A stretch of 64,000 nucleotides of DNA, taken from sequence record PZ445443.1. One strand, given 5' to 3'. Of this stretch, positions 41,384 to 49,527 are shown in pieces. The position numbers and the translations under genes are program-made. The notes beneath the pieces are model-generated. The model had not been told where the DNA came from. It ran no database searches and was given only the letters and a program-made list of their open reading frames with translations. This DNA is from a phage. How positions within the stretch are numbered: the stretch's first letter is position 1; every line of letters starts with the position of its first letter.

Positions 41384-41749
41384 ATGGAACAAATGAACGA
41401 TCAAGCGTCGGTTGCGATGAACGAGCAAGAACAACCTCAAGAATTTTTCTTAGGGTTAAGTAAAGATCAAGTGTCTCTTCTACTAGTGCTTTCTTCTTTC
41501 ATGGGAAGACTTCAGGAGCTCACACAACAACCAGAGGCTGAACAATTATTTCAAGCTCTGCGTGAAGAAGAAAAATATCGTCGTTTGGACTATGCCTTAG
41601 GTTGGGTAGCTCAACAACGAGATATGCTGATGGCCCTCTCTGGGACCACAAGTTTTGCAATGGGGCTGTTGGCTCAAGTTCAGGACAAATTAATTCAAGC
41701 AGGGTTTGCACACACGGCAAACACTAACGAAGAACAAGGAGACAAATAA
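41384..41749 (+). CDS. hypothetical protein (121 aa)
   Basis: ORF track; RBS GGAGA. Confidence 0.5.
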   Translation: MEQMNDQASVAMNEQEQPQEFFLGLSKDQVSLLLVLSSFMGRLQELTQQPEAEQLFQALREEEKYRRLDYALGWVAQQRDMLMALSGTTSFAMGLLAQVQDKLIQAGFAHTANTNEEQGDK

Positions 41750-43020
41750 TGAGCGTTATTCAACAATTCGCTAACCCGATGAATCCGCGTGAAACTGTTT
41801 TACTGGCTCACGGCATGATTAAACGTGTCAGCATCAAGCCTATCAAAGGTGCTGATCCTACAACAGGTATTAAAACCACTGTGTGGCAAGGTAAGAAAAT
41901 TGAATCCAGCCACACCATCTCTTTACTGATTTCTGAACTGGATTCCTCTGATAACCTGCTTCAAGGTGGTGAAGAAGTCTGGATCAGTATGGGTGATAAA
42001 CTGCTTAAACCGGGTCATCAAGACTCTGTCTCTGTTAAAATTGATGACAAGTGGGAAACCGTAACACCGGGATGGATCGTAAATATCCCTTTGAAGGCAA
42101 ACGAGCATAACGGTAAGACCTATTACAAAGGCTCACTGGCTAAGATGGTCAAGCTGGGTGCAGGAGAGGCTCCAGCAGCGACTCAGCAGCAAAAACAGCA
42201 ACAAGGTGCACAATCACAAGGCCAGAAGCAGAAACCTCAGCAGAATGCCAATCAGGACGTTTTACGCATCTATGGTGATGTGACTCAGATTGTTGGCAAC
42301 GTGGTTACTGTTAATGACCACAAGATTGGCGAAGGTGCTATGGTTGTCACTGATGAGCAGCTTAAAGACCTGGTGGTAGGTGGTCGTGTTGCAGCCATTG
42401 TTGACAAAGACACCGGAAACATTATCAGTGGTTTCAAAGCCTATCCACCTAAGGCAGAGAACGGCACCCAAGGCTCTGGTGGCAAGCGTAAATCCTCTTA
42501 CGACCCTATTGGTGTGGAGACGGGACATAGCATCAATGCGTTGCAAATCATCCTAGATCGCGGGTTTAAGGTGGACGACCCACTAAGCGTGGCTAAAACA
42601 CTGCACGTAGTCACCATTGAGCTTAAGAAAGAGTATGCTCAAGCCACCAACCGAACTGAAGATGAAGTAGGTGCCAGTGTCGGTAATGCGGTGTTGAACG
42701 CTTGTCGCCGTATTGACAAGAAAACGAAAGTTGATGATTTTGCAGCGGCAATTACTGCAGAAGCAAAAGATGTCTTGACTAATCTGGCTGAGCCGTTGTA
42801 CGATTGGATCAAGAACGGTGCTGGGTCCACTGACCATCAAGAACCTCAAGCTGCCAAACAGGAAGCTGCTTCACAGCAAAATACTGTAGACGCTCCTCCT
42901 GTAAATGACGAGGAAGATGACCCGATGGGTCAGAATCCGGCGCAGTATGACTTCTGTGATGACATACCTTTCGCTCCGGTAGGTTTGCAATATGGCAAAA
43001 GTAGAATCCACGCATTGTAA
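41749..43020 (+). CDS. putative ssDNA-binding/replication protein with SSB-like acidic DDIPF motif near C-terminus
   Basis: 423 aa; Gln-rich linker; ...DFCDDIPF resembles the E. coli SSB C-terminal tip but is followed by 15 more residues; in replication module. Confidence 0.4.
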
Positions 43021-43615
43021 GAGGTGCATCAAGTGCGGAGAGGTGAAAGACCTCTCCGAGTTCTACAAACACCAAAAGATGTCTGACGGTCATCTTAATA
43101 AGTGCAAAGAGTGTTGCAAGAAGGCCAGTAGGGAGGCTGACCAATTTTCCTACGACTCTTCAGAAAAAGGTGTAATACGCGTGCTGTACAAGGCTCAAAA
43201 GTGCAACAGCAAGCAAAGAGGTCACCCGCCTCCGACTTACACCAAAAAAGAGTTTAAGGAGTGGCTATACCTAAACGGTTACAAAGAGTTGTATGATCAA
43301 TGGGTAGCCAGCGGATACGACAAAAGGAAAAAGCCTTCTTGTGACAGGATAGATGATTTCAAAGGGTACTCTTTTGATAATATCCGTTTAACGACTTGGG
43401 GAGAAAATAAAGACAAGCAGACAGAGGATATTCTGTTGCATAGAAGCACCAGCGGTAGACGGTGTAAAAATGTAAGGAGGCTGGACATGAATGGCAACGT
43501 TCTTAAAGAATGGGTGTCCCACAACTCTTGTAGAAGAGAAACCGGAATATGTGTTGATTACTACATTCATGAAAAAATTCCAGCCCCAGATGGATACCTC
43601 TATGAATACTTTTAG
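42992..43615 (+). CDS. HNH-like (homing-type) endonuclease
   Basis: N-terminal Cys/His cluster CKRCIKCGE...KH...[10 protein letters not shown]; basic C-terminal region; overlaps 3' end of upstream gene. Confidence 0.45.
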
Positions 43616-43630
43616 CACCTAACTAACATA

Positions 43631-43659
43631 GCCCTGCCCGAAAGGGTGGGGCATTTTTG
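43631..43659 (+). terminator. rho-independent terminator (copy 2 of repeated hairpin)
   Basis: GCCCTGCCC-GAAA-GGGTGGGGC then ATTTTTGT; matches hairpin at 32857. Confidence 0.65.
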
Positions 43660-43677
43660 TATAAGGAGATCTGAAAA

Positions 43678-44094
43678 ATGACATTAGAAGATATCATTGT
43701 TAAGCCTGAGAACTATGACCAATACAACCTGTCAACTCAATCTGTAGACCTTGGATGCGCCACGGTCAGTGCGTGGCTGGTTAACGGAAAAGAGCTGGAT
43801 AAATGCTTAGAAGCTCACATGTCTATTAACAAGTTTCTGGATGAAAATACTCACTGGCTTGATGGTGCAGGCGTATATGCTTCATGGTTGGAGAGTATGG
43901 GATTCGACTACCAATCTGAAGAGGGGTGGTGGAGCTATTTAGCTATCTGTCCAGAGACGCTACAATGCTTCATGAAATATTCTGAAGATTTGGAGTACCG
44001 GGCGGTGGTTGATAGTGCTATTGCCCGTTATAGCCGTAAACCTTTTTCCCACGACATTAAAACTGTGGAAGAATTTGTTGAAGTTTTCTGTTGA
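43678..44094 (+). CDS. hypothetical protein (138 aa)
   Basis: ORF track; RBS AAGGAGA. Confidence 0.5.
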   Translation: MTLEDIIVKPENYDQYNLSTQSVDLGCATVSAWLVNGKELDKCLEAHMSINKFLDENTHWLDGAGVYASWLESMGFDYQSEEGWWSYLAICPETLQCFMKYSEDLEYRAVVDSAIARYSRKPFSHDIKTVEEFVEVFC

Positions 44095-44190
44095 CATAGA
44101 TTGAAAGGTGTGCAATTATAACTTCATAGAACGGGAGGACGTGATGAACGAAGAAAACTGGGATGTATAACTAACAGGAGGCCACTGCCC

Positions 44191-44388
44191 ATGATTTATC
44201 GAATCCGTGTAAGAGAAGATGCACCAGGCTGTTACTTTGACTGGCGTGGGTGGTGGTTTCTCCACCCAATGGATGGACTCACAGATAGAATGCTGGATGC
44301 TGCCCTTTACACAGATACCGACATAGAATATAATCTCTATCTGAAGGACGGTATAGATAACGGCCTGTTTGAAGCAATTCCTGCGTAA
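44191..44388 (+). CDS. hypothetical protein (65 aa)
   Basis: ORF track; RBS AGGAGG. Confidence 0.45.
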   Translation: MIYRIRVREDAPGCYFDWRGWWFLHPMDGLTDRMLDAALYTDTDIEYNLYLKDGIDNGLFEAIPA

Positions 44389-44456
44389 GAGACTGTGATA
44401 GCTATGTTTTATGATCTTCCTGTAGCGCCACCACCTGTTGAACCCGGAGAACTAAG

Positions 44457-44882
44457 ATGATCTATGAAATGCCAAAACTGATTCGTGACGATGCCCAAAA
44501 CGCTCACACCATTATTATGGGCAAACGCATGGATATTATTTGTCATAAAGATTTCTGGGAAGGAAGTTACTTCACAGAGTATTTTGGTAAACTGGACAAT
44601 GGTCTGCTGATCCAGTTCTACACCGATGCGGAAAACAACATTACCTGGGAGTTCGAAACTGAAGATGTCCATAAACTTTTCACCTTCCTCGGTATTAAGG
44701 TTAAGGCCAAGTTTGAAGAAGGTGAGTGCGACGATTGTGGATTTTATGAGGTAACAGATTTCTACCTTCCTAGCGGTAAGAACCTTTACTATGAAAGCCA
44801 CTTCGGTAACTCCAATATGCCACAGTGCTGGACTGAGTTTTTTGAAATTGCGGAAGAGGAGCTGGCTTACCGTGATTATTGA
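44457..44882 (+). CDS. hypothetical protein (141 aa)
   Basis: ORF track; RBS GGAGAA. Confidence 0.5.
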   Translation: MIYEMPKLIRDDAQNAHTIIMGKRMDIICHKDFWEGSYFTEYFGKLDNGLLIQFYTDAENNITWEFETEDVHKLFTFLGIKVKAKFEEGECDDCGFYEVTDFYLPSGKNLYYESHFGNSNMPQCWTEFFEIAEEELAYRDY

Positions 44883-45330
44883 TACTGTGGAGGGAGATTT
44901 AATCTCCCTTTTTAAGATCGGTGCTGGTCACCTGATCCACGGTTGTAACTGCTTCCACACAATGGGCAAGGGTATAGCAAAACAGATTGCCCGTGAGTTT
45001 CCTCAAGCACTGTCAGCCGACAAAGAGACTAGATACGGTTGCCTAAGTAAACTGGGTGCGTTCTCCCGATGGGAGCACTTATCTCCGATAGGTATTGTCT
45101 ACGGAATCAATCTATATACCCAGTTCTACCCAGGACCTAATGCTGAGTATTTCTCAATCCTGAAAGGCTTTGAGCTAGTCAATGAAGTATTCAGCGGATC
45201 GACTTTACCATTCTACATCCCTAAGATCGGGTGCGGCATAGGCGGTTTGAAGTGGGAACACGTAGAGGACGTTATCAACCTTGCCACTTTCGACATAGAT
45301 ATTGTCGTGGTGGAGTACAAAAAGTGTTGA
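44872..45330 (+). CDS. macro-domain protein (ADP-ribose binding/processing)
   Basis: HGCNCFHTMGKGIA and IPKIGCGIGGL resemble macro-domain glycine-rich motifs; GTG 44872 with GAGGAG upstream (track start 44791 overlaps upstream gene). Confidence 0.55.
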   Translation: MIIDTVEGDLISLFKIGAGHLIHGCNCFHTMGKGIAKQIAREFPQALSADKETRYGCLSKLGAFSRWEHLSPIGIVYGINLYTQFYPGPNAEYFSILKGFELVNEVFSGSTLPFYIPKIGCGIGGLKWEHVEDVINLATFDIDIVVVEYKKC

Positions 45331-45384
45331 CGACCATCTTCTGAGGTGATATAGTTTCCACGACAACTAAGAGAGGAGAGCACT

Positions 45385-45555
45385 GTGGAGACTAAAATCT
45401 TAATTCTTGCTGTGGTAGATACAACCGAAGGAGCTATATTCGAATCTGCAGGAGGGTATTTCTACCTACCATACGGAAAAAGAACTTCCGAGCCAAGTAA
45501 AGATTCAATCCTCAAAGTGTTCCCGTGTGCTTTCTGGCTGGAGATTTTGGTATAA
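45385..45555 (+). CDS. hypothetical small protein (56 aa, below ORF-track cutoff)
   Basis: GTG with strong AGAGAGGAGAG upstream; fills a 250-nt gap. Confidence 0.3.
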   Translation: METKILILAVVDTTEGAIFESAGGYFYLPYGKRTSEPSKDSILKVFPCAFWLEILV

Positions 45556-45581
45556 GATTGCAGAGGATTTGGGAGAGAATT

Positions 45582-45776
45582 ATGAGAAACAAGAAAGAAC
45601 TTTACTCTGGTGAGTGGATCAACGATCAACAGGTGGGAGAGGTAACCTGCTTCCGATGTTTTACCAGGTACAATCTTAAAACTGCACCAAAAAGTGTTCC
45701 AAAGACTGACGGTTACTACATAAAAGAACCTCATTGCCCAAAATGTAAATGCCGATTGTACTGGAGCAATCTGTAA
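45582..45776 (+). CDS. small zinc-ribbon protein (64 aa)
   Basis: CFRC...CPKCKC cysteine pairs; ATG 45582 with GGGAGAG upstream. Confidence 0.45.
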   Translation: MRNKKELYSGEWINDQQVGEVTCFRCFTRYNLKTAPKSVPKTDGYYIKEPHCPKCKCRLYWSNL

Positions 45777-45780
45777 GAGG

Positions 45781-45808
45781 TTGACATCTGAAAACTGCAG
45801 TGTATAAT
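45781..45808 (+). promoter_or_regulatory. sigma70-type promoter
   Basis: TTGACA (45781-45786), 16-nt spacer, TATAAT (45803-45808). Confidence 0.6.
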
Positions 45809-45839
45809 ATACGCATAAACTAACAGAGGGCGATGTATT

Positions 45840-46031
45840 ATGGTAATTTTTAACCGGGATGGTATCATAGTTAGACAGCACCCGTTCCTTGAATACTATC
45901 AAATTGAGCAATGGTGCTACGGGGATTGCAGTCACTCCTATGGGCAAAGTTGGGGATATCGTACAGTTTTTGAATCCACAGACCTTGACAAAGTAAAACA
46001 GAAAGTTTTAGAACTTCTTAACAACAAGTGA
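45840..46031 (+). CDS. hypothetical protein (63 aa)
   Basis: ORF track; 30 nt downstream of promoter. Confidence 0.5.
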   Translation: MVIFNRDGIIVRQHPFLEYYQIEQWCYGDCSHSYGQSWGYRTVFESTDLDKVKQKVLELLNNK

Positions 46032-46041
46032 GTATCGTGCC

Positions 46042-46374
46042 ATGGTAACATTGGAAAGACGTAAAGCTATTGCCGCCACACTGGCAGACATCTTTTGGGA
46101 TTGTAATTTAAAATCTACCCGAAATTGTGGTGCATCTGTAGATGTATTATTCCCACGGCCTACTATTGTTGCAATGGGCAACCTGCTCGATGTGGTATAT
46201 GGAGCATGGGACAAGGAAGGTGGATTCTATATCTGGCAACCTGACTACGGGACTTGGAAAGAGGTTAGTGGTTCTTCGGACTTCACTCCTGCAGTGGCTA
46301 AAATGGATGGCTGGAAAATCTATGTCGGTAACGACATGGAACTGAAAGGCGAAATTGTTTACTGGTTACCTTAA
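46042..46374 (+). CDS. hypothetical protein (110 aa)
   Basis: ORF track. Confidence 0.5.
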   Translation: MVTLERRKAIAATLADIFWDCNLKSTRNCGASVDVLFPRPTIVAMGNLLDVVYGAWDKEGGFYIWQPDYGTWKEVSGSSDFTPAVAKMDGWKIYVGNDMELKGEIVYWLP

Positions 46375-46395
46375 GAAAGTCCAGGAGATAAAGTT

Positions 46396-46641
46396 ATGAA
46401 CAAAGGGTGGACATTTGTAGACGGCGTTAAAAACATGCCTCTAGGAAAGTATATTGTAGCCATGGCAGATGAGAATGGCAAGGTGGATTTCGGAGTTTGC
46501 GAGGTTGTTCTTGCAGGATCTGGTGACTATGCTCACAAAACTGGGATAATTAACGGTCATTTCTACTTTGATTACAACCCTGTTGTGGCGTATATGGCTA
46601 TGCCAGAGTTAGAGCTCCCAAAGGAGGGTGCAGATGTTTAA
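46396..46641 (+). CDS. hypothetical small protein (81 aa)
   Basis: ORF track; RBS AGGAGA. Confidence 0.5.
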   Translation: MNKGWTFVDGVKNMPLGKYIVAMADENGKVDFGVCEVVLAGSGDYAHKTGIINGHFYFDYNPVVAYMAMPELELPKEGADV

Positions 46642-46831
46642 GCTTAAATCTGCATGGAACATCGCTGTAGGGGACGAGATCCGCATCCCAGGTGGAAAGA
46701 CCATTATGAAGATATCACGTATCGAGTATGAAGGTGATCGTGTATTTCATATCTTTGCAGAAGATGGTCGAGAAATTTATATACAGGCAGGCTCTCACAT
46801 CTATATCCGTAAGAAAGGGGACGACAAATGA
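46634..46831 (+). CDS. hypothetical small protein (65 aa)
   Basis: ATG 46634 with AAGGAGGG 5 nt upstream. Confidence 0.5.
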   Translation: MFKLKSAWNIAVGDEIRIPGGKTIMKISRIEYEGDRVFHIFAEDGREIYIQAGSHIYIRKKGDDK

Positions 46832-47160
46832 CAGAGATCATCGTTTCAACTGCAGGGTATGTATTCCTGACAATCATTGCGCTGGCTATTCTGGTGGCGG
46901 TGTATGGATTTGTTATCCTGCCTATTCTTGAGACATTTAGTTTGTGTCGGTGTTGGAGAAAAGCTTACGGACCACAACCGTGGAAAGACTGGTTCCATTT
47001 GGTGCGTATAGCGTTCTCTTATGCCTATGACCACTCCAGCAGTGCATGCGTAACCGGGTACCATGCCTACAACTGGAACTGGGAAGGTGTGGGAAGGTGG
47101 ACTGTTACAAAAACTATACCCTTGCGTTTATATAAAGGAAAGAACAAACTGGGCACCTGA
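46828..47160 (+). CDS. predicted membrane protein (110 aa)
   Basis: ORF track; hydrophobic segment VFLTIIALAILVAVYGFVILPIL; ATGA coupling. Confidence 0.5.
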   Translation: MTEIIVSTAGYVFLTIIALAILVAVYGFVILPILETFSLCRCWRKAYGPQPWKDWFHLVRIAFSYAYDHSSSACVTGYHAYNWNWEGVGRWTVTKTIPLRLYKGKNKLGT

Positions 47161-47164
47161 TATT

Positions 47165-47700
47165 TTTAAATTGCCAAGTTGCCAGAAATCAGGAGAATTT
47201 CTAAAATGGATTTTCTCCTGATATTTTGAACACATAGATATTTTAAAATTCTTAGAAAATCAGAAAATGGATCGAAAACTAAAATGGATTTTTTCAACAC
47301 AGGCGCGGAAAATTGTGCCAATCTATCTAGCCGTTTGCACCATATTCGAGATCACCGTTCCAGATTTCCTACACATACACACCTCTCCACCATACCTTTC
47401 TCCACTCACTCTTAGTGATTTATGACGGAAAACCCATCACTATCTTGAAGTTGCGGTGCAGTTTTCCAAGTACTCGATCTGTTTTTCGTTTCAAAGATTG
47501 AATTTTCTGAAAATTTTTCTCGATAAATTTCTCAGTACTCGATCTGTTTTTCGTTTTCTGAATCGGATTTTCTGGAAATCGTTCCGGCTCTCGACCTGAA
47601 ATTTTTGGGGACGAAATCGATTTTTCGTTTTCAGAAATGGATTTTTAAAATTTCTATATAGGAATATTTTAGTGGATACTATTTTATAGGAAATTGTTAC
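47165..47700. repeat. AT-rich non-coding region with inverted and direct repeats (origin-like)
   Basis: Inverted repeat TCAGGAGAA/TTCTCCTGA (47189-47221); 23-bp direct repeat AGTACTCGATCTGTTTTTCGTTT at 47469 and 47534; recurring AAAATGGAT and TTTCGTTTTC motifs; no ORF. Confidence 0.45.
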
Positions 47701-47759
47701 GGAGGGTAATTAGCGTGCTAATTAAATTTATTAAATGTGAGGAGTTCTCATTTAGAATT

Positions 47760-48110
47760 TTGAATGATAATCATTCTCGTTTGCAGAATAACGGGCAGGC
47801 CCGGTGATTGTCTCCCGGCCCCTGTTGCCCCGGCTTGTTATTATAGTATCACACAGGACAAAGAAAGCAAGGATTTTTTGCATAAATTTTTAAATGATAA
47901 TGATAACCGTTCTCATTTTATGCAGCGCCCATCCCCGGTGGTTGTCTCCCCCGTCACCGGTGCCTGCCGTCCTTTCGATAGGTATATTGTGCTACCTGGC
48001 GGGGCCGCTGTCAACACCTTTCAAAAAAAAAATTATAACCAGGTGCGCCCACTGCCAGTACCTGGCGGGGCCAACCTGGCAGGTCCGCGCTATAAAGTGA
48101 ACAGATGAAG
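47760..48110. repeat. two related GC-rich structured elements in an AT-rich intergenic region
   Basis: Both units share AATGATAAT...TTCTC-TTT-GCAG...CCGGTG-TTGTCTCCC; further TGGCGGGGCC repeats at ~47998 and ~48062; track ORF 47764..48108 is Pro/Gly-rich and coincides with the repeats. Confidence 0.35.
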
Positions 48111-48302
48111 AAGAGGTACATAAATGAAAGGTAATATGATCCCCTGGAAAATGTAGCTATTAATGACGCTGAGGCTATCGCCCTGGTTGAAAAGGCTATG
48201 GCGGGAGCGTTGGAACATAAAGAAGAGTACGAAAAAATGATGGTTAACCTGGCAGGGGCGGCGGCTGGAGAATTCTGCCCAAAAAATAATTTTAACTAAT
48301 GG

Positions 48303-48331
48303 TTGACAGCTCGGACAGTTCTTGTTATTCT
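48303..48331 (+). promoter_or_regulatory. sigma70-like promoter (weak -10)
   Basis: TTGACA (48303-48308), 17-nt spacer, TATTCT. Confidence 0.35.
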
Positions 48332-48383
48332 TATCCTCGCAAGGTGAACAACACCACACTAATTAACAGAGAGGATAAAAATC

Positions 48384-48581
48384 ATGAACGCCTACGGAAT
48401 CAAAGTACGTCGCAGCACTCGCCAGGTGGTCACCGATCAAATGGTTTGCCGGGTGGATGTAACCATCAACAACGGGCAAGGCCTTTATAAATTTCGTCGC
48501 GGTCATAGCTATACCCTGCAACAGCTTAACCGTTGCTCCCTGACAAAAGGTCAGATCAACCACTGGTTTAATAAAAAATAA
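48384..48581 (+). CDS. early small protein (65 aa)
   Basis: ORF track; RBS GAGGA. Confidence 0.5.
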   Translation: MNAYGIKVRRSTRQVVTDQMVCRVDVTINNGQGLYKFRRGHSYTLQQLNRCSLTKGQINHWFNKK

Positions 48582-48584
48582 ATA

Positions 48585-48613
48585 TTGACATGTGGTCTGA
48601 CACAAAATATACT
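48585..48613 (+). promoter_or_regulatory. sigma70-type promoter
   Basis: TTGACA (48585-48590), 17-nt spacer, TATACT (48608-48613). Confidence 0.6.
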
Positions 48614-48645
48614 GAAATCACAAAAGACACTAAGAGGATAAAATC

Positions 48646-49044
48646 ATGAAAACCACAACCTTTAATTTTGATAATGCCGACTTCTCTTTTTCTGATGTTA
48701 AAAGCTGCCGCCGTGATCGCGGATTCTACAAGGCCTATAATCTGGTGGGCCTGGACGATGACAATAATTTGCACGAAGTAGCTGAGATCCGGTATTATGC
48801 CGCCGCCAGCGGTAACACTCATTACTGTGTATTTTGGATTCACGACAACAAGAACAATAAGTACGGTTATACTGGCGGCAAGGCGAGCGGTCACGGTTAT
48901 GATAAAGCCAACGCTGCACTTGAAAGCGCATTAAGTGCCATGGGAATCACTGCCGACGGCTGGATCTATGAAGAAGAGTTTTTGGCGGCACTTGCTAACC
49001 ACTTGGGCTATAAAAAGCACATTGTAACATGCGCCCACGAATAA
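48646..49044 (+). CDS. early protein (132 aa)
   Basis: ORF track; RBS AAGAGGA. Confidence 0.55.
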   Translation: MKTTTFNFDNADFSFSDVKSCRRDRGFYKAYNLVGLDDDNNLHEVAEIRYYAAASGNTHYCVFWIHDNKNNKYGYTGGKASGHGYDKANAALESALSAMGITADGWIYEEEFLAALANHLGYKKHIVTCAHE

Positions 49045-49058
49045 AAAAAAAAAAATTA

Positions 49059-49086
49059 TTGACACGCTGCAAAATTCAAGTAAACT
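49059..49086 (+). promoter_or_regulatory. sigma70-type promoter
   Basis: TTGACA (49059-49064), 16-nt spacer, TAAACT (49081-49086); preceded by A-tract. Confidence 0.55.
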
Positions 49087-49096
49087 AGGCACAAAA

Positions 49097-49114
49097 GGCG
49101 GGAAACATCCCGCC
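49097..49114 (+). promoter_or_regulatory. conserved 5' leader hairpin (GGCGGG-loop-CCCGCC)
   Basis: GGCGGGaaacatCCCGCC ~11 nt after the -10 and before the SD; related copies at 49770, 51619, 55721. Confidence 0.45.
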
Positions 49115-49131
49115 AACACAGAGGAAAAGCT

Positions 49132-49527
49132 ATGAATAAGAACGTACGCCGCATCATGAACGAACTGGCAAACGATGAAAAAATTATTGACATGCATTTG
49201 GTCAACATTTGCCGCCGTTGTGTAACATATAACAACCGCGCCGCAAAAGCGCGTGAGATGAACGCAAAAGGCACCTTAAAGCCCTTTCAGGTGGTTGTAA
49301 AATCTATAACTAATGCAGCAGGCCAGGCGCATGATCACAACAACGAGAGCACTAATATTGATCCGTCTTACGTAATGAAACGGATCCGGACTTGCAAGAA
49401 TAAAGAGCAGGTGTATAACGTCATAGATTGGCTTGATTCCATGGGCGACGTGGTTTATAATAGGTTTTCTGCAGCTATCGAGATCCAGCTTGACAGGTTG
49501 GACGGGAAAGTACTAAAAACTTATTAA
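49132..49527 (+). CDS. early protein (131 aa)
   Basis: ORF track; RBS AGAGGAAAAG. Confidence 0.55.
   Translation: MNKNVRRIMNELANDEKIIDMHLVNICRRCVTYNNRAAKAREMNAKGTLKPFQVVVKSITNAAGQAHDHNNESTNIDPSYVMKRIRTCKNKEQVYNVIDWLDSMGDVVYNRFSAAIEIQLDRLDGKVLKTY

What the first reader, a model, noticed from the sequence alone, without database searches (positions are those of the whole stretch)
44872..45330. Phage-encoded macro-domain protein
ORF 44872-45330 carries glycine-rich motifs (HGCNCFHTMGKGIA, IPKIGCGIGGL) consistent with a macro (ADP-ribose binding or hydrolase) domain. In a lytic phage, such a protein could reverse host ADP-ribosylation of DNA or proteins, for example from toxin or defence ADP-ribosyltransferases, or process NAD-derived signals.
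Basis: partly seen in the sequence, partly recalled or inferred. Interest (0 to 1): 0.55.

Follow-up and report, generated by a model that had tools for sequence, protein, structure and literature searches.

The report
Phage macrodomain, likely anti-DarT2 enzyme
This rV5-like coliphage gene encodes a small ADP-ribose-removing (macro) enzyme, an ortholog of phage T4 Tk.4/AdfM, which was recently shown to protect T4 from the DNA-ADP-ribosylating DarTG2 defence, so it is a real but largely already-explained gene.

Summary
ORF 44872-45330 (+, GTG start, 152 aa) is a stand-alone macrodomain: Pfam Macro scores above its cut-off, PHROG 335 gives E = 1.7e-58, and the AF2 model has pLDDT 97. The closest folds are BT1257/SCO6735, DarG, Poa1p and TARG1.

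The window is an rV5-like Vequintavirus. Near-identical GenBank records already call this gene 'macro domain protein' or 'phosphatase'. It belongs to the T4 Tk.4 family, which occurs in 2,770 of 50,697 phage records. It is 39% identical to T4 Tk.4 and 69% identical to the syntenic Krischvirus Tk.4.

A 2025 preprint found tk.4 to be the only T4 gene needed against DarTG2 and named it AdfM.

One refinement is new. DarG, TARG1 and PhiKZ AdfM have a catalytic Lys, but this whole family has an invariant Gln (Q84) paired with an invariant Asn (N26). That is the arrangement of SCO6735, a Lys-less hydrolase of thymidine-linked ADP-ribose on DNA. The gene is an orphan: it has no DarT partner and no DarT-binding domain.

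Verdict: a new member of a known kind, of modest interest.

The parts
44872..45330 (+). Macrodomain gene (152 aa plus stop), ortholog of T4 Tk.4/AdfM
44856..44861 (+). Shine-Dalgarno-like GAGGAG, 10 nt upstream of the GTG start
   Evidence: Read directly from the sequence.
44947..44949 (+). Codon AAC for Asn26. Invariant in the family. Equivalent to SCO6735 N27, Taq DarG N22 and PhiKZ AdfM N23.
   Evidence: Roles of the equivalent residues are from PMC9411070 and PMC13309987.
45121..45123 (+). Codon CAG for Gln84. Invariant in the family. It occupies the position of the catalytic Lys of TARG1 (K84), DarG (K80) and PhiKZ AdfM (K78), and of the essential Gln85 of SCO6735.
44962..44979 (+). First glycine-rich loop, MGKGIA (residues 31-36; G34 and A36 invariant)
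45220..45246 (+). Second glycine-rich (diphosphate-binding) loop, PKIGCGIGG (residues 117-125). P117 and G120 are invariant. G122 is equivalent to SCO6735 G128.
44457..44882 (+). Upstream ORF of 141 aa (phrog_8157, function unknown). Its stop overlaps the macro start, so the two are probably translationally coupled. It is not a conserved partner of the macro gene.
44306..44334 (+). Sigma-70-like promoter match (TTTACA-17-TATAAT, 11 of 12) upstream of the ORF141-macro pair. Consensus match only.
43631..43652 (+). Strong intrinsic-terminator-like hairpin (9 pairs, 7 of them GC, followed by a T tract) that closes the preceding unit. The block containing the macro gene starts after it.
   Evidence: A terminator is annotated at the same place in HdK5.

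Best explanation
The gene encodes a stand-alone, orphan 'antitoxin-like' macrodomain of the T4 Tk.4/AdfM family. It is probably made early from host-type promoters. It most likely binds ADP-ribose attached by a host DarT2 toxin to thymidines in single-stranded phage DNA and hydrolyses the ribose-base bond, releasing ADP-ribose so that replication can proceed in DarTG2-carrying E. coli. Unlike DarG, the chemistry probably does not use a catalytic lysine. An invariant Gln84, held in place by the invariant Asn26, would position the distal ribose for attack by water, as proposed for SCO6735. What is shown here: the fold, the family membership, the residue equivalences and the orphan context. What is shown elsewhere for relatives: T4 tk.4 is needed against DarTG2, and SCO6735 removes thymidine-linked ADP-ribose from DNA in a Gln85- and Asn27-dependent way. 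What is inferred: that this Vequintavirus protein has the same substrate and the same role.
Against: There is no experiment on any Vequintavirus protein. At 39% identity to T4 Tk.4, substrate specificity could differ. The T4 evidence is genetic and comes from a preprint; the enzymology of Tk.4 has not been reported. The catalytic Lys of DarG, TARG1 and PhiKZ AdfM is absent. The protein also lacks SCO6735's longer lysine-bearing mobile loop (K89, K94), which contributes to that enzyme's DNA activity, and it has Gly rather than Val/Ile at the SCO6735 V25 position. Sequence and fold scores do not separate DarG, SCO6735/BT1257, TARG1 and Poa1p as the nearest relative. The T5 correlation rests on a single phage.
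Confidence: 0.68

Rival explanations
1. It is an ADP-ribose-1''-phosphate phosphatase or O-acetyl-ADP-ribose deacetylase, a Poa1p-like small-molecule enzyme that clears by-products of RNA repair or sirtuin reactions. This is what the common 'phosphatase' annotation implies.
Against: Poa1p scores lowest among the class members against the family profile (55 bits against 62-67). Poa1p has Ser, not Gln, at the position after the conserved Thr, according to my recollection of the sequence rather than a test. F152 of Poa1p aligns with G124. The only genetic phenotype known for a family member concerns DarTG2. No KptA/Tpt1 or sirtuin was seen near the gene. The 'phosphatase' label is inherited annotation, not an experiment.
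Confidence: 0.1
2. It removes mono-ADP-ribose from proteins (Glu/Asp-linked, as TARG1 does). That could undo host ADP-ribosyltransferase toxins acting on phage or host proteins, or tune the phage's own ADP-ribosylation of host targets.
For: TARG1 is the top Foldseek hit (E = 2e-10, TM 0.78). SCO6735 also de-modifies auto-ADP-ribosylated PARP1 E988Q. Myoviruses often carry ADP-ribosyltransferases (PMC9503650).
Against: The TARG1 catalytic dyad is missing: K84 is Q84 and D125 is G124. No ADP-ribosyltransferase gene was seen in the annotated parts of the window. The T4 phenotype is specific to DarTG2.
Confidence: 0.1
3. It binds or degrades ADP-ribose-derived immune signals (Thoeris gcADPR or His-ADPR), or removes ADP-ribose from RNA (for example CmdTAC-type mRNA modification), rather than acting on DNA.
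Confidence: 0.07

Closest known systems
T4 Tk.4 = AdfM (anti-DarT factor Macrodomain; HIDEN-SEQ preprint 10.1101/2025.11.20.689424)
   Same: Stand-alone macrodomain of about 150 aa from a virulent myovirus. Collinear over the full length at 39% identity. Same PHROG 335. Same invariant residues: HGCNC, NLYTQ and P-x-IG-x-G.
   Different: The genomic locus differs: T4-like phages carry it between vs and tk, whereas here it lies in a block of unknown ORFs downstream of the DNA polymerase. The Vequintavirus protein has not been tested. Krischvirus Tk.4, at 69% identity, is much closer to it than T4 Tk.4 is.
Streptomyces coelicolor SCO6735 and Bacteroides BT1257 (PDB 5E3B, 2FG1/2AFC)
   Different: Only 24-26% identity. 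The phage protein lacks the longer Lys-bearing mobile loop and has Gly rather than Val/Ile at the V25 position. SCO6735 is a cellular protein, not a phage one.
DarG2 antitoxin macrodomain (Thermus aquaticus, M. tuberculosis; PDB 5M31, 5M3E, 5M3I)
   Different: There is no C-terminal DarT-binding domain and no adjacent darT. The score is far below the equivalog cut-off (45 against 250 bits). The catalytic Lys80 is replaced by Gln.
Chimallivirus AdfM (PhiKZ gp104; PMC13309987)
   Same: A phage-encoded orphan macrodomain that removes DarT2 ADP-ribose from DNA. Homologous (hhalign probability 97.5%) and also collected in PHROG 335.
   Different: Only about 20% identity. It is DarG-type, with Lys78 at the catalytic position. 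It is imported into the phage nucleus, a compartment that Vequintaviruses are not known to form.
Human TARG1/OARD1 and yeast Poa1p
   Different: The TARG1 K84/D125 dyad is absent. Poa1p acts on a small molecule, and its F152 aligns with a Gly here.

Membership tests
Macro domain superfamily (Pfam PF01661) | Profile score above the curated gathering threshold | tested here: met
   28 bits against a cut-off of 22, E = 2.2e-6.
Macro domain superfamily (Pfam PF01661) | Three-layer alpha/beta/alpha macro fold with two Gly-rich ADP-ribose-binding loops | tested here: met
ALC1-like / TARG1-like macrodomain class | Closer in structure to TARG1, DarG, SCO6735 and Poa1p than to MacroD, nsp3, macroH2A or PARG types | tested here: met
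T4 Tk.4 / AdfM family (PHROG 335, Gln-type) | Full-length homology to T4 Tk.4 and membership of the same profile family | tested here: met
   BLASTP 39% identity, E = 9e-41, residues 1-150. PHROG 335 gives 1.7e-58 for the window protein and 1.3e-65 for T4 Tk.4.
T4 Tk.4 / AdfM family (PHROG 335, Gln-type) | Link to the syntenic tk.4 locus of T4-like phages | tested here: met
   69% identity to Krischvirus ECD7 'Tk.4', which lies between vs and tk. The window gene itself is at a different locus.
T4 Tk.4 / AdfM family (PHROG 335, Gln-type) | Required for growth on DarTG2-expressing hosts | not testable with these tools
   Shown only for T4. Needs phage genetics.
DarG2 antitoxin (NCBIfam NF048014 equivalog) | Score at or above the equivalog cut-off, with the full two-domain architecture (macro plus C-terminal DarT-binding domain) | tested here: not met
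   45.3 bits against a cut-off of 250. The match covers only profile positions 3-141 of 338, and the protein is 152 aa.
DarG2 antitoxin (NCBIfam NF048014 equivalog) | Catalytic lysine (Taq K80) | tested here: not met
   Gln84 aligns with the Lys of Mtb DarG.
DarG2 antitoxin (NCBIfam NF048014 equivalog) | Conserved active-site Asn (Taq N22) | tested here: met
   N26 is invariant and aligned.
DarG2 antitoxin (NCBIfam NF048014 equivalog) | Encoded next to a darT toxin gene | tested here: not met
   None of the ten flanking ORFs has a PADLOC or Pfam hit. PHROGs assigns eight of them only to families of unknown function; protein 1 is also of unknown function and protein 2 is a homing endonuclease.
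Chimallivirus AdfM (PhiKZ gp104 type) | Active-site pair Asn23 and Lys78 | tested here: not met
   The Asn is conserved, but Lys78 aligns with Gln84. Overall identity is about 20% (hhalign probability 97.5%).
SCO6735-type Gln macrodomain hydrolases | Gln at the TARG1-K84 position, the supporting Asn (N27) and Gly128 | tested here: met
   Q84, N26 and G122 align with Q85, N27 and G128. All three are invariant or at least 90% conserved in the family.
SCO6735-type Gln macrodomain hydrolases | Val/Ile at position 25 and an extended mobile loop with Lys89 and Lys94 | tested here: not met
   Gly24 lies at the V25 position. The loop after Gln84 is short (QFYPGPN) and about 5-6 residues shorter than in SCO6735 and BT1257. 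Some phage homologs (Pakpunavirus, Phapecoctavirus) do have longer loops.
SCO6735-type Gln macrodomain hydrolases | Hydrolysis of thymidine-linked ADP-ribose on DNA | not testable with these tools
   Biochemical assay needed.
TARG1 | Catalytic Lys84/Asp125 dyad | tested here: not met
   Q84 and G124 occupy these columns.
Poa1p (ADP-ribose-1''-phosphate phosphatase) | Residues probed in the Poa1p structures (H23, S30, F152) | tested here: inconclusive
   H23 is conserved (at least 90%). Position 30 is Thr here and variable in the family. F152 aligns with G124. I did not read the Poa1p paper, so the roles of these residues are not established here.

The most novel reading that the evidence does not exclude
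The name 'AdfM' covers two catalytically different phage macrodomain lineages. The PhiKZ type keeps DarG's catalytic Lys. The far more widespread Tk.4 type, which includes this Vequintavirus protein, T4, and Felix-O1-like, Pakpunavirus and other phages (2,770 phage genomes in all), has an invariant Asn/Gln pair like SCO6735 and ALC1 and works without a lysine. If so, phages recruited a non-DarG branch of the ALC1-like class. That branch may have a broader substrate range than the host antitoxin it functionally mimics, for example protein or RNA ADP-ribose, or DarT2 variants.
Probability: 0.5. Interest if true: 0.4.

Novelty: new member of a known kind. Interest (0 to 1): 0.3.

Why it matters
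The result adds the Vequintavirinae, a group of broad-host-range coliphages used in therapy collections, to the phages predicted to carry an enzymatic answer to DarTG2. It also shows that the common 'phosphatase' or 'hypothetical protein' label on roughly 5% of sequenced phage genomes probably hides an anti-DarT2 factor. The Gln-for-Lys observation gives a concrete, cheap test (Q84A and N26S mutants) of whether phage AdfM enzymes of the Tk.4 type use the SCO6735 mechanism rather than the DarG mechanism. That matters for predicting which DarT variants or other ADP-ribosyl linkages they can reverse. It does not open a new kind of biology.

Tried and rejected
1. One search was a mistake. It hit only Streptomyces phages and is not used as evidence.

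2. and one search failed because a search term was shorter than three characters.

3. The regex survey of the catalytic motif in all 93 hits gave a few apparent non-Gln cases. These were first-match artefacts or fragments. Alignment A1 shows Gln84 invariant in all 58 full-length sequences.

4. I tested whether the translationally coupled upstream ORF141 is a conserved partner, for example a stand-in for DarG's DarT-binding domain. It is rejected. It occurs in 176 records against 2,770 for the macro gene, and in Krischvirus it lies next to a methyltransferase, not next to Tk.4.

6. I looked for NAD or ADP-ribose genes (ADP-ribosyltransferase, NADAR, Nampt) near the gene using relatives' annotations. 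None was seen in the window's span, but those annotations are mostly 'hypothetical protein', so absence is weak evidence.

7. I could not measure the N26-Q84 distance in the AF2 model, because model coordinates are not exposed to the script tool.

8. The preprint on Thoeris II and Migulavirinae and the PhiKZ antisense-oligomer screen mention macro domains only in other contexts.

Full report
**Observation.** The + strand frame containing the reported ORF is open from 44791 to the stop codon at 45328-45330. It is preceded by GAGGAG at 44856-44861. Independent annotators of the near-identical phages HdK5 and EmilHeitz call the same 459-nt CDS, and the N-termini of homologs start at the equivalent residue. 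The two quoted motifs are present at residues 23-36 and 116-126.

**Which genome.** A 2.8-kb stretch around the gene is 99.3-99.4% identical to Escherichia phages nom, naswa, APECc02 and HdK5, and 98.5% identical to EmilHeitz (Bas49). All are Vequintavirus, the rV5-like virulent myoviruses. Several of these records already label the gene 'macro domain protein', 'phosphatase' or 'phage T4-like protein ... with Macro domain'. Others, including the curated BASEL record, call it hypothetical.

**What the protein is.**
- Profile hits: Pfam Macro is above its gathering threshold (28 against 22 bits). PHROG 335 ('phosphatase') matches at 1.7e-58. The only meaningful NCBIfam and PADLOC hits are to DarG, and only to its N-terminal macro half.
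- Structure: an AF2 model built on 58 homologs is very confident (pLDDT 97.2, pTM 0.91).

The protein is therefore a macrodomain of the ALC1-like (TARG1/DarG/SCO6735/Poa1p) class. Scores do not single out one member as the closest.

**Family and orthology.** tblastn finds a homolog in 2,770 of 50,697 phage records. These include T4-like phages, Felixounavirus, Pakpunavirus, Kuttervirus, Phapecoctavirus, and jumbo Vibrio and Aeromonas phages. T4 itself has one at 39% identity. It is collinear over the full length (E = 9e-41) and is the gene next to vs, that is tk.4. The Krischvirus ECD7 protein annotated 'Tk.4' lies between vs and tk and is 69% identical to the window protein. That ties the window protein firmly to the Tk.4 group, although in Vequintavirus the gene sits at a different locus. 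BFVD fold hits agree (Acinetobacter phage 133 tk.4, TM 0.89).

**What is known about that family.**
- A bioRxiv preprint of November 2025 (HIDEN-SEQ, 10.1101/2025.11.20.689424) infected DarTG2-expressing E. coli with a T4 transposon library. It found tk.4 as the single significant hit, and a clean knockout became DarTG2-sensitive. The authors named the gene adfM and proposed enzymatic removal of ADP-ribose from DNA.
- Independently, a 2026 Cell Reports paper gave the name AdfM to the PhiKZ gp104 macrodomain. It showed removal of DarT2-made ADP-ribose from DNA in vitro, with N23 and K78 as the putative active-site residues.
- DarT2 ADP-ribosylates thymidine in single-stranded DNA and blocks replication. 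NADAR-type factors (AdfN) act only on DarT1's guanine adducts.

For this phage it remains an inference from homology.

**Active site: the one point that goes beyond the literature I could find.** In an alignment of 58 homologs, G24, N26, G34, A36, N80, Q84, P117 and G120 are invariant. Gln84, in the motif N-L-Y-T-Q, occupies the column of the catalytic Lys of TARG1 (K84), Mtb DarG and PhiKZ AdfM (K78). That same column is Gln in BT1257 and SCO6735. Eight phage lineages as far apart as a Rhodococcus phage all have Gln.

According to PMC9411070, SCO6735 Q85A is inactive and N27S nearly so. The wild type cleaves thymidine-linked ADP-ribose on DNA efficiently and protects against DarT, and Gln at this position separates SCO6735 and ALC1 homologs from TARG1 and DarG. 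The phage family keeps the equivalents of N27, Q85 and G128 (N26, Q84, G122). It lacks SCO6735's longer Lys-bearing loop and has Gly at the V25 position.

The HIDEN-SEQ text compares Tk.4 only with Mtb DarG and never mentions lysine, glutamine or SCO6735. I therefore propose that Tk.4-type AdfM enzymes, including this one, work by the Lys-independent, Gln-positioned mechanism, and that the two proteins named 'AdfM' represent different catalytic types. This is inference.

**Context.**
- The gene lies downstream of the DNA polymerase, in a long same-strand block of small ORFs.
- A strong terminator-like hairpin at 43631-43652 precedes the block. It is annotated as a terminator in HdK5.
- Sigma-70-like promoter matches are enriched (29 against 14.9 +/- 3.1). 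One lies at 44306-44334, upstream of the ORF141-macro pair. This fits early expression but is only a consensus match.
- None of the ten flanking ORFs has a Pfam or PADLOC hit. PHROGs gives only families of unknown function, plus one HNH/EndoVII-like homing endonuclease. There is no darT, so the gene is an orphan.
- The overlapping upstream ORF141 is not a conserved partner.

**Phyletic check.** T5, the DarTG2-sensitive control in both studies, has no homolog in a six-frame profile search (best E = 0.36). The window (1.6e-61, a single copy) and PhiKZ gp104 (3.8e-14) were both recovered. This is consistent with the hypothesis but rests on one phage.

**Rivals.** The 'phosphatase' label implies Poa1p-like activity on ADP-ribose-1''-phosphate. 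It rests on inherited annotation and on a shared N-terminal motif. Protein de-ADP-ribosylation is possible, since SCO6735 has that side activity, but the TARG1 dyad is absent. Roles in Thoeris-signal or RNA-ADPr reversal have no specific support. I put about 0.68 on the anti-DarT2 DNA hydrolase reading.

**Verdict.** This is a real, correctly identified macrodomain gene. It is already annotated as such in relatives, and its likely role has been established for the T4 ortholog. It is a new member of a known kind, of modest interest. The Gln-type active site is a small refinement that can be tested directly.

Noticed in passing
window 42992-43615 (+): A 207-aa HNH/EndoVII-like homing endonuclease (phrog_1035, E = 7e-41) overlaps the 3' end of the 423-aa gene at 41749-43020. 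It is present in nom, EmilHeitz (bas49_0090), CM1 and I29 but absent at this site in HdK5/naswa-type relatives, so it looks like a mobile insertion.
   Followed up: partly
window 41500-49500, e.g. 45781-45808 (+): Sigma-70-like promoter matches occur at twice the shuffled expectation (29 against 14.9 +/- 3.1), nearly all on the + strand. They include a perfect TTGACA-16-TATAAT at 45781-45808 and a match at 45327-45355 that begins at the macro gene's stop codon.
   Followed up: no
GenBank records MG065635, MG065647, MG065644 (matches to window 43600-46400): Sixteen records named 'Campylobacter phage' with host C. jejuni are 92-96% identical to this E. coli Vequintavirus region. The host assignment or naming of those records looks doubtful.
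   Followed up: no
L004 21352-21945 (phage Alma, OV101294): Annotation slip. The label 'Putative macro domain protein' sits on the neighbouring 171-nt ORF, while the true macro ORF is called short (369 nt) and named 'Phi92_gp185'.
   Followed up: no
L017 2501-2956 (Krischvirus ECD7 Tk.4): The Krischvirus Tk.4 protein is 69% identical to the Vequintavirus protein, whereas T4 Tk.4 is only 39% identical. This suggests lateral exchange of the gene between Vequintavirinae and Krischvirus.
   Followed up: partly
window 44457-44882 (+); L016 2501-2932: ORF141 (phrog_8157, no Pfam or PADLOC hit) is translationally coupled to the macro gene here. Its homologs in Krischvirus, at 39% identity, sit directly upstream of a DNA N-methyltransferase instead.
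   Followed up: partly
homologs P0058, P0062, P0079 (alignment A1): Some family members carry extensions. P0058 and P0062 have a hydrophobic, membrane-anchor-like N-terminus (MIELSIILFLSLCITLLIKYY...). Kuttervirus-type proteins of about 199-205 aa have an acidic C-terminal tail.
   Followed up: no
BFVD A0A481YV05 (Marseillevirus LCMAC103): The best viral fold hit (TM 0.92, 39% identity) is a 302-aa giant-virus protein labelled 'SNF2 subfamily protein'. This recalls ALC1, which joins an SNF2 ATPase to a Gln-type macro domain.
   Followed up: no
H55, Acinetobacter phage phi1_092033 (PQ859668) 88178-88633: In this phage the macro homolog lies next to a nicotinamide phosphoribosyltransferase gene, a link to NAD salvage that is not seen in the window.
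   Followed up: no
window about 1-23600 (by homology to L015): By comparison with EmilHeitz, the upstream part of the window carries the multi-tail-fibre cluster (lateral fibres with glycosidase, deacetylase and intimin-like domains), a putative metallopeptidase, an anti-sigma factor, a fucosyltransferase, a MoxR ATPase and rIIA/rIIB. Further downstream are N6-adenine and Dcm-like methyltransferases and an intein- or endonuclease-interrupted DNA polymerase.
   Followed up: no
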